A stretch of DNA of 4,601 nucleotides, taken from positions 1 through 4,601 of IMG/VR virus record IMGVR_UViG_2545824644_000011, one strand, 5' to 3'. How positions within the stretch are numbered: position 1 is the stretch's first letter; every line of letters starts with the position of its first letter. This stretch comes from a virus. Taxonomy: Duplodnaviria; Heunggongvirae; Uroviricota; Caudoviricetes. Below the pieces are notes generated by a model. That model made no database searches. It was not told the origin of the DNA and worked only from the letters and a program-made list of their open reading frames with translations. The position numbers and the translations under genes are program-made. Shown one piece after another: positions 1 through 4,601 of this stretch.

Positions 1-289
<289 letters not shown>

Positions 290-1235: not shown

Positions 1236-3251
1236 ATGAGTACCACAACACGAAAATTTAAAACCATTATCACTGATACTGGTGCCAAAAAATTAGCTCA
1301 GGCTGCCGCGCCAGATGGTAATCCTGTCCGCCTGACTCATATGGCCGTGGGCGACGGTGGCGGCACGTTGCCCACACCAGACAGTAAGCAGACCCGTCTG
1401 GTGCATGAGGTGTGGCGACATACTGTTAATCGCGTCATCCTGGACGCAACACATCAGAACCGCATTATTGCGGAGCTGGTTATTCCTCCTGAAACGGGCG
1501 GATTCTGGATCCGGGAAATTGGTGTATTTGATGAGCACGGCGATTTGATCGCGGTGGGCAATACTGCCGAAAGTTACAAACCAACCGTTGCCGAAGGATC
1601 CGGACGTGCACAAACATTTCGCACCATTCTGACCGTATCCAGCACTGCCACCGTGGCGCTTACCGTGGATAACACCATGGTGATGGCCACAGTGGATTAC
1701 GTGGATGACAAACTGAAAGAGCATGAACAGTCACGACGTCACCCGGACGCCTCGCTGACCGCAAAAGGCTTTGTTCAACTCAGTAGCGCCACTAACAGCG
1801 TGTCTGAAACGCAGGCTGCAACGCCGAAAGCAGTAAAGGCCGCGTATGACCTTGCTAACGGGAAATATACTGCGCAGGATGCCACCACAGCGCGGAAAGG
1901 CCTTGTCCAGCTCAGTAGCGCCACCAACAGCACGTCTGAAGCACTGGCCGCAACACCGAAAGCGGTAAAGACAGCATATGACCTTGCTAACGGGAAATAT
2001 ACCGCTCAGGACGCTACGACAGCACAAAAAGGGATTGTCCAGCTAAGCAGCGCGACTAACAGCACATCTGAAACGCTTGCCGCGACACCGAAAGCAGTGA
2101 AAGCAGCTAATGACAATGCGAATGGTCGGGTACCTTCTGCCCGTAAGGTGAATGGTAAGGCGCTTTCAGCGGATATTACACTGACGCCGAAAGATATTGG
2201 TACGCTTAACTCAACAACTATGTCATTCAGCGGTGGTGCTGGTTGGTTCAAATTAGCAACGGTAACCATGCCGCAGGCGAGTTCTGTTGTTTCAATTACG
2301 TTGATTGGTGGCGCGGGATTTAACGTGGAGTCACCTCAACAGGCAGGTATATCTGAACTTGTTCTTCGTGCGGGAAATGGAAATCCAAAAGGTCTTACTG
2401 GTGCGTTATGGCGACGGACATCGGTTGGATTTACTAATTTTGCATGGGTGAATACATCCGGTGATACCTATGATGTTTATGTTGAAATAGGTAATTACGC
2501 CACAGGTGTTAATATTCAATGGGATTATACCAGTAACGCCAGCGTAACGATTCATACTTCACCAGCATATTCTGCTAATAAGCCGGAAGGATTAACGGAC
2601 GGTTCTGTTTATTCGCTGTATATTTCGCCTCATGAACTTTATCCGGTTGGCGCACCGATCCCTTGGCCATCAGATACCGTTCCGTCTGGTTATGCCCTGA
2701 TGCAGGGGCAGACTTTTGACAAATCTGCATACCCGAAACTTGCAGCCGCTTATCCGTCAGGCGTGATCCCTGATATGCGTAGCTGGACGATTAAGGGCAA
2801 GCCCGCCAGTGGTCGTGCAGTATTGTCTCAGGAACAGGACGGCATTAAATCGCACACCCACAGCGCCAGTGCATCCAGTACGGATTTGGGGACGAAAACC
2901 ACATCGTCGTTTGATTACGGTACCAAGACGTCCAGTTCATTTAACCATGGCACTAAAACCACGAATAGCGCCGGGGATCATTCACACAATATTCCTGTTG
3001 GCAACACTGGTGCTGGTAATGGTGTTTCGGCTGGTTATAACTCAGGGCTTGGCACTGGAAAAACAAGTAACGCAGGGGGGCACTCTCACACAGTAAATAT
3101 TGGCGCACACACTCATACGGTAGGAATTGGCGCACACACACACTCCGTTGCGATAGGTTCACACGGGCATACCATCACCGTTAACGCTACGGGTAACGCA
3201 GAAAACACCGTAAAAAACATCGCATTTAACTATATTGTGAGGCTTGCATGA
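1236..3251 (+). CDS. Tail fibre protein, 671 aa, mosaic: P2 gpH-like N-terminal domain, three tandem 44-aa repeats, divergent central domain, lambda Stf-like C-terminal tip with His-x-His motifs
   Basis: ATG at 1236 lies 2 nt after the gpI stop. The N-terminus (...[27 protein letters not shown]...[48 protein letters not shown]...) is gpH-like. The C-terminus (...[74 protein letters not shown]...[31 protein letters not shown]) matches the lambda side tail fibre terminus. Confidence 0.9.
1764..2132 (+). repeat. In-frame tandem repeat inside the tail-fibre gene: three units of 132 bp (44 aa), starting at 1764, 1896 and 2028; the third unit is partial and degenerate
   Basis: The units encode KG[F/L/I]VQLSSATNS[V/T]SE[T/A][Q/L]AATPKAVK[A/T][17 protein letters not shown][R/Q]. 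Amino-acid identity between units is high, while the DNA differs at many synonymous positions. Confidence 0.85.
3075..3180 (+). other. His-x-His motif array in the tail-fibre tip ([36 protein letters not shown]), presumed metal-coordinating
   Basis: The translation of 3075..3180 shows four consecutive HxH units at a period of about 9-10 aa. Similar HxH repeats occur in tail-fibre distal domains (T4 gp37 and lambda Stf family). At DNA level an imperfect direct repeat of about 27 bp, ...TTGGCGCACACAC..., lies at about 3099-3147. Confidence 0.7.
3238..3242 (+). promoter_or_regulatory. Shine-Dalgarno-like element (TGAGG) for the macrodomain ORF, embedded in the 3' end of the tail-fibre gene
   Basis: TGAGG at 3238-3242 lies 5 nt upstream of ATG 3248. 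The ATG overlaps the tail-fibre stop TGA (3249-3251), giving an ATGA coupling arrangement. Confidence 0.5.
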
Positions 3252-4150
3252 TTACGCTCATTCTTTCTGCACCAGTAACAGAAATGGCTGAAGCATTTAA
3301 GCAGGTATTTGCAAATGCAGATAGTGTGAATATTGTCGGAAAGCCATTTGAAACAATCAGAGAATTTGACTGCATGGTAAGTGCGGCAAATAGTTTCGGC
3401 CTGATGGATGGTGGCGTTGATGCCGCCATTACCGCATTCTTCGGTACTCAGTTACAGTCCCGCGTTCAGAATCATATTCTTCGTGAATATCTCGGCGAAC
3501 AGCCTGTAGGTTCTGCATTTGTCATTGAAACGGGGCATAATCATCACCCCTGGCTGGTACATGCGCCAACAATGCGTGTTCCGTTGACAATTGACGGAAC
3601 AGACGCTGTATATAACGCAACCTGGGCCGCTCTGCTTGCCATCTTTCAGCACAATAAAAACGCAACGACAGACATGAAAATAAAAACAGTGGTATTCCCT
3701 GCAATGGGGGCCGGATGTGGTCAGGTGCCGTTTGAAAGTGTTGCCCGACAGATGAAGCAGGCATGGGATAACTTTAATAAAAAAACAGAATCAATTAACT
3801 GGGAATACGCACAATCTCGCCAGTCGGCAGTATTTGGCACATATGCATACTGTCCGGGTAATTCCGTTTGCCGTTATGCGGATACTAAATATATTGGATG
3901 CGGCGATTATCGGACGTGTTGCTCTCGTTCCGGGCAAGTCTGTATTAACCCTGAACATCAGGCTGATGATGTACTGATACAACATCAGGCTAATAACCGT
4001 TTTCGCCATGGTTCGCATATACACCGGATTAATCCAGAAAATCCCGTAGGTAATGTCACCTCTGGCGCACATAGCCACGGAAGTAGCATCGTTATTGGTA
4101 CTCCTACCCATACGCTCAATAAACAATATTCTGTCTCTGATATTAAGTAG
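3248..4150 (+). CDS. Macrodomain-containing protein, 300 aa: N-terminal macro (ADP-ribose binding/processing) domain of about 180 aa plus a C-terminal extension of about 120 aa carrying a 6-Cys cluster and His-x-His fibre-tip-like motifs
   Basis: The single long ORF starts by overlapping the tail-fibre stop. Residues 43-61 (nt 3374-3430), [19 protein letters not shown], match the macrodomain signature (V/I)NAAN-x-L-x-GGGV-x-x-AI. Residues 148-161 (nt 3689-3730), [14 protein letters not shown], match the second signature (IAFPAISTGVYG-like). The C-terminal part has C202, C208, C218, C224, C225 and C232, then [36 protein letters not shown]. Confidence 0.7.
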
Positions 4151-4156
4151 AGGTGA
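4150..4156 (+). promoter_or_regulatory. Shine-Dalgarno element (GAGGTGA) for tfa
   Basis: GAGGTGA at 4150-4156 lies immediately upstream of ATG 4159 and overlaps the last base of the macrodomain ORF stop codon. Confidence 0.6.
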
Positions 4157-4158
4157 AC

Positions 4159-4601
4159 ATGGATTTCAGAATGAGTGAACAATCACGGACCATAAAAATT
4201 TATAACCTGCTGGCCGGAACTAATGAATTTATTGGGGAAGGTGATGCATACATTCCACCTCATACAGGTCTGCCTGCAAACAGTACCGATATTGCACCAC
4301 CAGATATTCCGGCTGGCTTCGTGGCTGTTTTCAACAGTGATGAGGCATCGTGGCATCTCGTTGAAGACCATCGGGGTAAAACTGTTTATGACGTGGCATC
4401 AGGGGACGCGTTATTTATTTCTGAACTCGGTCCGTTACCGGAAAATGTTACCTGGTTGTCGCCGGATGGAGAGTGTCAGAAGTGGAACGGCACATCCTGG
4501 GTGAAAGATGCAGAAGCAGAAAAACTGTTTCGGGTAAGGGAGGCAGAAGAAACAAAAAACAGCCTGATGCAGGTAGCCAGTGAGCATATTGCGCCACTTC
4601 A
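4159..4601 (+). CDS. tfa: Tail fibre assembly protein (lambda Tfa family), 3'-partial, runs off the window end
   Basis: Hand translation from ATG 4159 gives [147 protein letters not shown] with no stop before the window end. This is nearly identical to lambda Tfa as I recall it. It is missing from the ORF track because it has no stop inside the window. Confidence 0.9.

What the first reader, a model, noticed from the sequence alone, without database searches (positions are those of the whole stretch)
3248..4150. Macrodomain gene inserted exactly at the tail-fibre / tail-fibre-chaperone junction
In lambda-type modules stf is followed directly by tfa. Here a 903-bp ORF lies between a lambda Stf-like fibre terminus (...[11 protein letters not shown]) and a near-lambda Tfa. 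Its N-terminal 180 aa carry both macrodomain signatures ([17 protein letters not shown] at nt 3380-3430; FPAMGAGCG at nt 3695-3721). Macrodomains bind or hydrolyse ADP-ribose adducts, so a phage-borne copy is a plausible counter to ADP-ribosylation-based immunity (for example DarT-type DNA ADP-ribosylation) or to ADP-ribose-derived signalling. A second possibility is a fibre-associated receptor-modifying esterase. A third is a prophage-carried defence or moron gene acting against superinfecting phage. Its position inside the structural tail operon, rather than in a classic moron slot with its own promoter and terminator, is unusual.
Basis: partly seen in the sequence, partly recalled or inferred. 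Interest (0 to 1): 0.85.

Follow-up and report, generated by a model that had tools for sequence, protein, structure and literature searches.

The report
Macrodomain passenger gene in tail-fibre cassette
Between a phage tail-fibre gene and its assembly-chaperone gene sits a real, well-conserved gene for an ADP-ribose-binding "macrodomain" protein with an odd cysteine- and histidine-rich tail; databases already name the domain, but nobody has tested its function, which is most likely to counter bacterial ADP-ribose-based immunity.

Summary

The gene is an optional, precisely placed insert. A sister prophage lacks exactly nt 3256-4164, and lambda carries the same flanks as one joined match without the gene. 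The same fibre-tip/macro/tfa unit occurs in P2-like, P1-like, lambdoid (Gifsy-1) and other myovirus prophages, so it travels with the host-range cassette. It is under purifying selection (omega 0.04-0.14), and the scan found no promoter or terminator of its own.

It is not DarG/AdfM-like: the catalytic Lys is missing and DarG is a distant neighbour. The most likely role (about 0.4) is a late-made ADP-ribose binder or hydrolase that counters ADP-ribose-based immunity. A virion- or fibre-docked role is not excluded.

RefSeq, the Gifsy-1 record and PHROG 2613 already annotate the domain. No functional study was found. Interest is moderate.

The parts
1236..3251 (+). Tail-fibre gene: P2 gpH-type N-terminus, lambda Stf-type C-terminal tip with HxH repeats, ending in [11 protein letters not shown].
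   Evidence: Pfam Phage_tail_fib, Phage_fiber_2 x3 and Collar. The tip matches lambda stf at 88.8% nt identity. The same tip type is found in all 9 loci compared.
3239..3251 (+). Coupling junction. GAGG (3239-3242) is a Shine-Dalgarno-like sequence 5 nt before ATG 3248. The ATG overlaps the fibre stop TGA 3249-3251.
   Evidence: Read directly from the sequence. The same GTGAGGCT(T/G/C)GCATGA junction is present in Chuche, Gifsy-1 and SEN5.
3248..4150 (+). Macro-domain protein gene, 300 aa.
   Evidence: ORF. phrog_2613, E 1e-145. 1714 homologues, the closest named 'macro domain-containing protein'. The exact protein is on record in 210 blocks of the assembly collection; the four places shown are apparently complete P2-like prophages.
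3248..3817 (+). Macrodomain, aa 1-190, Ymx7/MacroD-like.
3389..3421 (+). Pocket loop 1: N48-x6-G55-G56-V57-D58 (Nx6GGVD).
   Evidence: N48, D54, G55 and D58 are invariant in 108 aligned sequences that include ~30%-identical stand-alone relatives.
3695..3721 (+). Pocket loop 2: FPAMGAGCG, a Gly-rich diphosphate loop without the aromatic residue of MacroD's G[VIA][YF]G.
   Evidence: G154 and G158 are invariant; P151, M153 and G156 are >=90% conserved. It aligns to LGTGVGG of TTHA0132.
3848..3958 (+). Cys-rich knuckle, aa 201-237: YCPx4-5C...YIGxGDYRTxC-x6-C-I-x3-HQ.
   Evidence: C202, C208, C225, C232 and H237 are invariant in alignment A1. dN/dS 0.07-0.24. AF2 predicts a beta-hairpin at 211-225 with pLDDT 56-71. 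Outside this family only weak, apparently spurious repeat-protein matches turned up among 1.84 billion representatives.
3968..4147 (+). Variable His-rich tail, aa 241-300, with GxHxH repeats.
   Evidence: His is 12% of the tail against 3% of the macrodomain. HxH occurs 1.9 times per tail against 0.67 expected from shuffles. It aligns weakly to the fibre's own HxH repeats (E 0.003). Length and sequence vary between lineages. AF2 pLDDT <50.
3256..4164 (+). The stretch absent from the macro-less sister locus (the indel).
   Evidence: blastn of the window against L003: window 1763-3255 and 4165-4601 are contiguous there, apart from 1 nt. Junction sequences.
4159..4601 (+). tfa (tail-fibre assembly chaperone); runs off the window end. 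GAGGTG at 4150-4155 is its Shine-Dalgarno-like sequence and overlaps the macro stop TAG 4148-4150.
   Evidence: Pfam Caudo_TAP. 98.6% nt identity to the L003 tfa; the flanks (stf tip plus tfa) match lambda at 88.8%. Sequence read.

Best explanation
The ORF is a functional accessory gene. It rides inside the lambda-type 'fibre tip + Tfa' host-range cassette and is made late, together with the fibre and its chaperone.

Its product has two parts. The first is an N-terminal Ymx7/MacroD-like macrodomain with an intact ADP-ribose pocket (N48 and D58, plus two Gly-rich loops). The second is a family-specific C-terminal module: a four-Cys knuckle followed by GxHxH repeats. That module looks metal-binding. 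It probably drives oligomerisation or docking, possibly onto the Stf/Tfa complex.

The most likely job is to bind or hydrolyse an ADP-ribose-containing molecule in the infected cell. That molecule could be an ADP-ribose-derived immune signal or an ADP-ribosyl adduct, so the protein would protect late steps of infection from ADP-ribose/NAD-based host immunity. It is not a DarG/AdfM-type DNA de-ADP-ribosylase.

Shown: the gene, the domain, the conserved pocket, purifying selection, precise optional insertion, cassette co-transfer, and the absence of predicted own transcription signals. Inferred: ADP-ribose ligand, late co-expression, counter-defence role, and the role of the tail.
For: - N48 and D58 are invariant in 108 sequences. 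Their spacing equals that of the MacroD N/D dyad (my knowledge of MacroD1 N174/D184).
- Purifying selection acts on both the macrodomain and the knuckle.
- The insert is optional and exact.
- The macrodomain is 98-99% identical between P2-like and P1-like hosts whose fibre N-termini are 32% identical. It is 96% identical between lambdoid Gifsy-1 and P2-like SEN5, whose fibre N-termini are 26% identical. It tracks Tfa identity (rho 0.50).
- It has overlapping or closely spaced start and stop codons with its neighbours and its own Shine-Dalgarno-like sequence, but no promoter or terminator.
- Precedent: phage macrodomains do neutralise ADP-ribosylation defence (T4 and PhiKZ AdfM; 10.1101/2025.11.20.689424, PMC13309987).
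- Precedent: side tail fibre plus chaperone is the determinant that sets off type II Thoeris (His-ADPR signalling) in Pseudomonas phages (10.64898/2026.06.04.730250, section 6). E. coli has macro-type ThsA (PDB 8v6q, listed).
- Iyer et al. 2022 (PMC9503650) predict that phage Macro proteins mainly counter soluble ADPr derivatives.
Against: - There are no experimental data for any family member.
- Late expression is an awkward time for a counter-defence enzyme.
- A purely cytoplasmic enzyme does not explain the fibre-like tail, nor the strict linkage to one fibre-tip type.
- Loop 2 lacks the aromatic residue, and His188 of MacroD1 is Thr62 here, so hydrolase activity is uncertain and it may only bind.
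- The link between Thoeris and side fibres comes from one preprint on unrelated phages.
- Linkage to the cassette could be pure hitch-hiking and say nothing about function.
Confidence: 0.4

Rival explanations
1. Virion component. The Cys4/GxHxH tail trimerises like a fibre needle or docks onto the Stf tip or Tfa. The macrodomain would then be displayed on, or carried by, the particle. It could act as a receptor-binding or receptor-modifying (esterase-like) head, or as cargo.
For: - The tail has fibre-like GxHxH repeats that are enriched over shuffles and align weakly to the adjacent fibre's repeats.
- The gene always lies between a fibre with the same tip type and tfa.
- The tail evolves fast, like host-range determinants.
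- Stand-alone relatives sit next to Collar- or S74-type fibre genes, next to P22-type head-completion genes, or beside a polyvalent protein.
- Iyer et al. 2022 infer virion packaging of phage Macro proteins (PMC9503650).
Against: - The Pfam Phage_fiber repeat is not significantly matched.
- AF2 gives no confident structure for the tail.
- Lambda and sister prophages use the same tip and Tfa without this gene, so fibre assembly does not need it.
- The pocket is a canonical nucleotide (ADP-ribose) pocket with no known extracellular ligand.
- Side fibres are not injected.
- No proteomic evidence was found.
Confidence: 0.22
2. Functionally unrelated hitch-hiker. This would be a selfish or generally useful ADP-ribose enzyme that landed between tip and tfa. 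It spreads only because that cassette is the most frequently exchanged piece of tailed-phage genomes. Its role (for example NAD/ADPr metabolism or RNA-repair by-product clearance, like Ymx7/Poa1p) would have nothing to do with fibres.
For: - The cassette moves as a unit across unrelated backbones.
- The gene is rare: 128 of 5426 E. coli genomes, and 6 of 288 phage records that share the flanks.
- The closest solved fold is an ADPr-1''-phosphatase.
- Some stand-alone relatives lie in replication or toxin-antitoxin neighbourhoods.
Against: - It does not explain the conserved, family-specific C-terminal module under purifying selection.
- It does not explain the tight start/stop packing against both neighbours, kept even between E. 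coli and Salmonella versions that are 63-69% identical.
Confidence: 0.2
3. Anti-DarT factor: it removes DarT-type ADP-ribose from phage DNA, like DarG or AdfM.
For: - Phage macrodomains of the AdfM type do exactly this (PMC13309987; 10.1101/2025.11.20.689424).
Against: - The catalytic Lys (PhiKZ AdfM K78) aligns to a gap, and the neighbouring residue here is the invariant Met109.
- The PADLOC DarG match is E 0.007, below significance.
- A tk.4 protein of a T4-like phage (same gene name as T4's AdfM) is only rank 26 in the viral fold search.
- PhiPA3 carries both AdfM (gp108) and a separate relative of this clade (gp271), which implies different jobs (PMC13309987).
- The protein would be made late.
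Confidence: 0.06
4. Prophage-borne defence or lysogenic-conversion gene (moron), expressed in the lysogen against superinfecting phage.
For: - Prophages often carry such genes near the tail-fibre region.
- An acetyltransferase moron lies just beyond tfa in the related P2-like and P1-like loci.
Against: - The gene has the same orientation as the late tail genes around it, overlaps the fibre stop codon, and has no promoter or terminator hit flanking it.
- There is no partner toxin or effector gene.
- No significant PADLOC hit.
Confidence: 0.07

Closest known systems
Yeast Ymx7 (YMR087W, PDB 1njr), ADP-ribose-1''-monophosphatase; Pfam Macro_2-like macrodomains
   Different: Only ~20% identical. 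The Pfam Macro_2 score of 23.3 bits is below its 27-bit cut-off. Ymx7 is a eukaryotic housekeeping enzyme with no Cys/His tail and no phage context.
TTHA0132 (PDB 2dx6) and the MacroD-type hydrolases (OiMacroD, YmdB, MacroD1/2)
   Same: TTHA0132 is the closest solved sequence (E 7e-16). The Nx6GGVD loop and the N/D spacing are as in MacroD, and the second loop is Gly-rich.
   Different: The aromatic residue of G[VIA][YF]G is absent (GAGCG here). The His of MacroD1 (H188) is Thr62. TTHA0132 itself has no known function.
AdfM (T4 Tk.4; PhiKZ gp104), phage DarG-like anti-DarT2 macrodomains
   Same: Both are phage-encoded single macrodomains with a conserved Asn (N48 here, N23 in PhiKZ). AdfM is the best experimental precedent that phage macrodomains are counter-defence enzymes.
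   Different: The catalytic Lys is missing here. The sequence and fold relationship is distant. AdfM is not reported as part of a tail-fibre cassette (PMC13309987; 10.1101/2025.11.20.689424) and has no C-terminal module.
Lambda stf-tfa / P2 H-G / P1 S-U host-range cassette
   Same: The flanks here are this cassette, at 88.8% nt identity to lambda, with the same junction logic of stop/start overlap.
   Different: The canonical cassette has two genes. This one has a third gene wedged between them.
Stand-alone ~185-aa phage and prophage macrodomains (Microcystis phage Mae-JY35, Sinorhizobium phiM7/M12, jumbo phages Noxifer and PhiPA3 gp271; phrog_14717 'tail protein')
   Same: They belong to the same macro clade (30-38% identity). 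Several lie in tail or structural modules.
   Different: They lack the Cys-knuckle and His-rich tail. Their contexts are mixed, including replication and toxin-antitoxin neighbourhoods. In the one 'tail protein' record inspected (Noxifer) the neighbours are all hypothetical proteins, so that label is not backed by context.

Membership tests
Macrodomain superfamily (Pfam PF01661) | Profile match above the curated threshold | tested here: met
   68.1 bits against a cut-off of 22, E 8.5e-19, covering aa 44-169 and the full model length. Eight homologues score 66-79 bits.
Macrodomain superfamily (Pfam PF01661) | Three-layer alpha/beta/alpha macro fold | tested here: met
Macrodomain superfamily (Pfam PF01661) | ADP-ribose binding or hydrolysis | not testable with these tools
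   Only the conservation of pocket residues can be shown (N48, D54, G55, D58, G154, G158 invariant).
MacroD-type hydrolases | Nx6GG[VLI]D catalytic loop | tested here: met
   N48-SFGLMD-G55-G56-V57-D58. The motif definition is from my knowledge of Rack, Perina and Ahel 2016.
MacroD-type hydrolases | G[VIA][YF]G loop with aromatic residue; His four residues after the Asp | tested here: not met
   Loop 2 is G154-A-G-C-G158 with no aromatic residue. The position after D58+4 is T62, invariant in alignment A1.
Ymx7 / Pfam Macro_2 (PF14519) | Profile match above threshold | tested here: inconclusive
   23.3 bits against a cut-off of 27; homologues score 17.8-26.8 bits. Even so, Ymx7 is the top structural neighbour.
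DarG / AdfM anti-DarT macrodomains | Catalytic Lys on the 'PTK' strand (TaqDarG K80, PhiKZ AdfM K78) | tested here: not met
   hhalign of A2 against PhiKZ gp104 aligns FPT-K78-DN-WRNP to APT---MRVP. The Lys falls in a gap and M109 is invariant. The alignment is weak (E 0.025).
DarG / AdfM anti-DarT macrodomains | Significant match to a DarG profile, or DarG as nearest relative | tested here: not met
   PADLOC DarG gives E 0.007 with no stretch passing. The PDB profile search gives DarG 1.8e-6 against TTHA0132 7e-16. A tk.4 protein of a T4-like phage is rank 26 in BFVD.
Tail-fibre proteins with gp37/Stf-type HxH needle repeats (Pfam Phage_fiber PF03335) | Significant repeat-profile match in the C-terminal tail | tested here: not met
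   There is no hit for the window protein at E<=0.01. The best hit among 8 homologues is E 0.76.
Tail-fibre proteins with gp37/Stf-type HxH needle repeats (Pfam Phage_fiber PF03335) | Repeated GxHxH motif, trimeric metal-binding needle | tested here: inconclusive
   HxH occurs 1.9 times per tail against 0.67 in shuffles, nearly always as GxHxH. blastp to the fibre's own repeats gives E 0.003. Oligomeric state and metal binding are not testable here.
Prophage moron / defence gene | Own promoter and terminator; expression independent of the late operon | tested here: not met
   No sigma-70-like site lies upstream and no terminator downstream. The only + strand promoter-like hits lie inside the ORF, and the total count is below the shuffle expectation. 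The start overlaps the fibre stop.
Tail-fibre assembly chaperones (Caudo_TAP) | Profile match | tested here: not met
   Only Macro and Macro_2 are found in the ORF. Caudo_TAP is found in the next gene.

The most novel reading that the evidence does not exclude
The macrodomain protein is a physical part of the side-tail-fibre tip complex. Its Cys4/GxHxH tail would co-assemble with, or mimic, the Stf HxH needle with help from Tfa. It would then be the first macrodomain displayed on a phage fibre. Two variants fit this reading. It could act outside the cell on a receptor-linked substrate. Or it could be a trigger-linked antidote, held on the very fibre-chaperone complex that TIR/Thoeris-type sensors recognise and neutralising the ADP-ribose-derived signal at its source.
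Probability: 0.12. Interest if true: 0.85.

Novelty: new variant of a known kind. Interest (0 to 1): 0.5.

Why it matters
Phage macrodomains have only just been shown to be counter-defence enzymes (AdfM). This family is different. It has a different catalytic make-up and a unique Cys/His C-terminal module. It also has a fixed place inside the most mobile piece of tailed-phage genomes, the fibre-tip/chaperone host-range cassette.

If it counters an ADP-ribose-based defence, then swapping a host-range cassette would deliver receptor specificity and an immune antagonist in one step. That would be relevant to host-range engineering for phage therapy. If it is fibre-bound, it would be a new kind of virion enzyme.

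The question is directly testable. Phage Chuche, SEN4/5 and Gifsy-1 carry the gene, and lambda carries the same cassette without it.

It is not a discovery of a new domain. The annotation 'macro domain-containing protein' already exists in RefSeq and in the Gifsy-1 record.

Tried and rejected
- Single-sequence AF2 gave a useless model (pLDDT 33). It was replaced by a run on a 108-sequence alignment.
- I searched the C-terminal 117 aa against 1.84 billion representatives. Only family members or fragments came back, plus weak hits to unrelated repeat proteins that I judged spurious on inspection (P0244 and P0246 read; P0245 not inspected). No other architecture carries this module.
- The tail does not significantly match the Pfam Phage_fiber repeat. 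The fibre-like reading therefore rests on motif statistics only.
- The PADLOC DarG hit (E 0.007) was rejected as not significant.
- The 'tail protein' labels (phrog_14717, jumbo-phage records, some NCBI names) were checked. In Noxifer the gene sits among hypothetical proteins. I did not take these labels as evidence.
- The promoter and terminator scan found nothing flanking the ORF.
- Literature searches for a characterised member found none (macro domain + tail fibre / tail fiber assembly / Gifsy-1 / virion proteomics). The SEN4/5 paper has no virion proteomics.
- The minus-strand ORF 3791..4126 and other overlapping ORFs were dismissed, because the + frame is the one conserved and under purifying selection.
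- DNA repeats between the fibre and the macro tail amount to a short shared GAH-coding motif (family D1). They are not evidence of recent duplication.
Full report
**What is in the window**

The 4.6-kb window is the tail end of a P2-like prophage cut by an insertion sequence.
- Nt 38-223 encode the last 61 aa of an IS21-family IstB.
- Nt 303-710 encode only the last 135 aa of baseplate protein J.
- Nt 670-1233 encode a P2 gpI-type protein.
- Nt 1236-3251 encode a gpH-type tail fibre with Phage_tail_fib, three Phage_fiber_2 repeats and a Collar domain.
- Nt 4159 onwards encode a Caudo_TAP chaperone.

Homology to intact P2-like prophages of E. coli begins at nt 290.

ORF 3248-4150 (+, 300 aa) exists, and both quoted peptide motifs are at the quoted nucleotides. 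Its ATG overlaps the fibre's TGA (GCATGA), and a GAGG lies 5 nt upstream. Its TAG overlaps the GAGGTG that precedes the tfa ATG at 4159. The fibre ends in ...[11 protein letters not shown]. The fibre tip and tfa match phage lambda stf/tfa at 88.8% nt identity, as a single place joined from two pieces that lacks the macro gene.

A sister P2-like prophage (L003) has window nt 1763-3255 and 4165-4601 contiguous apart from one base, with the stf TAA overlapping the tfa ATG. The gene is therefore a precise, optional 909-bp insert between the two cassette genes.

**The macrodomain is real**

- Pfam Macro scores 68.1 bits (cut-off 22, E 8.5e-19) over aa 44-169. NCBIfam ADP-ribose-binding models give E down to 4e-14 but stay far below their equivalog cut-offs.
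- With a 108-sequence alignment (A2), AlphaFold2 gives pLDDT >90 for aa 1-190.
- By sequence profile, the nearest solved proteins are TTHA0132 (E 7e-16) and Ymx7 (8e-12). DarG is at 1.8e-6.
- Across A2, which includes stand-alone relatives only ~30% identical, the invariant residues are V44, S45, N48, M53, D54, G55, D58, E84, P107, T108, M109, G154 and G158. N48-x6-GGVD58 fits the MacroD-type Nx6GG[VLI]D loop, with the same N-to-D spacing as MacroD1 N174/D184 (my knowledge).
- The second loop is GAGCG, without the usual aromatic residue. The MacroD1 His188 position is Thr62. An ADP-ribose pocket is therefore well supported, but hydrolase activity is not settled.

Residues ~195-300 are not linker.
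- Alignment of E. coli, E. albertii, Salmonella, Erwinia and Citrobacter members shows invariant C202, C208, C225, C232 and H237 inside YCPx4-5C...YIGxGDYRTxCx6CIx3HQ.
- A tail follows whose length and sequence vary by lineage, but which keeps GxHxH units.
- His makes up 12% of the window's tail against 3% of its macrodomain. HxH occurs 1.9 times per tail against 0.67 in composition-matched shuffles, almost always as GxHxH.
- The tail aligns weakly (E 0.003) with the HxH repeats of the adjacent fibre. It does not reach significance against Pfam's Phage_fiber repeat.
- AF2 predicts a beta-hairpin for the knuckle (pLDDT 56-71) and nothing confident for the tail.
- dN/dS is 0.04-0.14 for the macrodomain, 0.07-0.24 for the knuckle and 0.3-0.8 for the tail.
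- A search of 1.84 billion representative proteins with the last 117 aa found only this family, plus weak hits to unrelated repeat proteins that look spurious.

**Distribution and context**

The family has 1714 detectable members, mainly in E. coli, Salmonella, E. albertii/fergusonii, Erwinia and Citrobacter. They are named 'macro domain-containing protein' or 'phage tail protein'. The family is PHROG 2613, function unknown.

The same order, fibre (…NIAFNY[IL]VRLA) then macro then tfa, with an ATGA overlap at the fibre-macro junction, is found in these backbones:
- P2-like phages and prophages: Chuche, SEN4/5, DEC5B, and the window's own allele in apparently complete prophages.
- The lambdoid siphovirus Gifsy-1, STM2588.1n, already annotated as containing pfam01661.
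- P1-like phage-plasmids carrying darA (one copy frameshifted).
- A different myovirus-type prophage in Erwinia and Citrobacter.

The macrodomain is 98-99% identical between P2-like and P1-like carriers whose fibre N-termini are 32% identical. It is 96% identical between Gifsy-1 and SEN5, whose fibre N-termini are 26% identical. Macro identity tracks Tfa identity (Spearman 0.50). The gene therefore moves with the tip+Tfa host-range cassette.

It is uncommon. It occurs in 128 of 5426 complete E. coli genomes, with 22 of the 131 matched places on plasmids. Only 6 of 288 phage records that share the flanks carry it. Lambda and L003 show that the tip and Tfa work without it.

**Relatives without the tail**

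A large clade of ~185-aa stand-alone macrodomains (6125 hits) exists in phages and prophages. Their contexts are mixed but often structural:
- directly after a Collar-domain fibre gene in a Devosia prophage;
- between S74- and Collar-type fibre genes;
- next to an S74 fibre gene in Microcystis phage Mae-JY35;
- between a P22 gp10-like gene and a large lysozyme-domain protein;
- beside a polyvalent protein;
- but also in a replication module and beside HigBA-like genes.

This fits the survey of Iyer et al. 2022 (PMC9503650). That survey places phage Macro genes either in early regions or among morphogenesis genes, and suggests virion packaging.

**Transcription signals**

The consensus scan finds no sigma-70-like promoter upstream of the ORF and no terminator after it. 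The total count of hits is below the shuffle expectation. Together with the overlapping and abutting stop/start codons, this points to expression with the flanking late tail genes. That is an inference, not a measurement.

**Mechanism**

The DarT/DarG idea is disfavoured.
- The PADLOC DarG hit is not significant.
- DarG is a distant neighbour, and a tk.4 protein from a T4-like phage (same gene name as T4's AdfM) is also distant.
- In a weak profile alignment to PhiKZ AdfM, the catalytic K78 falls in a gap beside the invariant M109.
- PhiPA3 carries both AdfM (gp108) and a separate member of this clade (gp271) (PMC13309987).

The moron or defence idea is disfavoured by the lack of transcription signals of its own and of any partner gene.

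My best explanation (confidence 0.4) is a late-made ADP-ribose binder or hydrolase that counters ADP-ribose/NAD-based immunity. A recent preprint supplies a rationale. In Pseudomonas phages, the side tail fibre together with its chaperone determines activation of type II Thoeris, whose signal is His-ADPR (10.64898/2026.06.04.730250, section 6). An antagonist encoded and made with the trigger would be well placed. This link is an inference.

The main rivals are a fibre- or virion-docked protein (0.22), which would explain the tail, and a functionally unrelated hitch-hiker in the mobile cassette (0.20).

**Novelty and verdict**

The domain call is already in RefSeq, in the Gifsy-1 record and in PHROGs. 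I found no functional study. Three things appear undescribed: the conserved Cys4/GxHxH module, the strict position within the host-range cassette across four phage backbones, and the non-DarG catalytic make-up.

I rate this a new variant of a known kind, with interest 0.5.

Noticed in passing
window 38-223 and 303-710: The prophage is truncated by an IS21-family element. Only the last 61 aa of IstB and the last 135 aa of baseplate J remain, and homology to intact P2-like prophages starts at nt 290. The exact macro allele also occurs in apparently complete prophages.
   Followed up: partly
window 1763-2125 (fibre gene): The fibre gene contains tandem ~132-nt repeats encoding Phage_fiber_2 units. 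Fibre length varies (627, 671, 715, 719 aa) among prophages with the same gene order, which suggests repeat expansion and contraction.
   Followed up: no
L002 10636-11208, L003 6716-7288, L011 7485-8030, L012 7520-9206: An opposite-strand acetyltransferase lies just after tfa in P2-like and P1-like loci. It is labelled 'serine acetyltransferase' or DapH/GlmU-like, and L012 also has an LPS GlcNAc-transferase. It is probably a lysogenic-conversion moron and is present with or without the macro gene.
   Followed up: no
L005 (Salmonella phage SEN34) 4001-4183: An orphan fragment matches only aa 184-244 of the macro protein (the Cys knuckle). It lies next to an O-acetyltransferase moron and away from any macrodomain, so it is probably a recombination relic.
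   Followed up: partly
L012 5989-6880 (plasmid p1919D3-2): In this P1-like phage-plasmid the macro gene is frameshifted and the fibre gene is broken into pseudogene pieces. The cassette evidently decays in some carriers.
   Followed up: no
L002 10636-16456; L021 9534-16903: In these P2-like prophages the gpU, tape-measure, gpE, tube and sheath genes lie on the strand opposite to V-W-J-I-H-macro-G, while gpD is again on the + strand. As I recall the P2 map, that operon is co-directional with H-G, so this block may be inverted here. Not checked against P2 itself.
   Followed up: no
PhiPA3 (NC_028999.1) 246683-247123: The jumbo phage PhiPA3 has two macrodomain genes: gp108, the published AdfM, and gp271, a relative of the window's clade. 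This hints at two separate ADP-ribose-related functions in one phage (PMC13309987).
   Followed up: partly
window 3917, 4007-4009, 4088-4093 (aa 224, 254, 281-282): Compared with close homologues, the window's copy has Y224C (an extra Cys in the knuckle), P254H, and GAH changed to GTP in the last GxHxH unit, which loses one His. The GTP change is shared with the 579-member cluster P0001.
   Followed up: no
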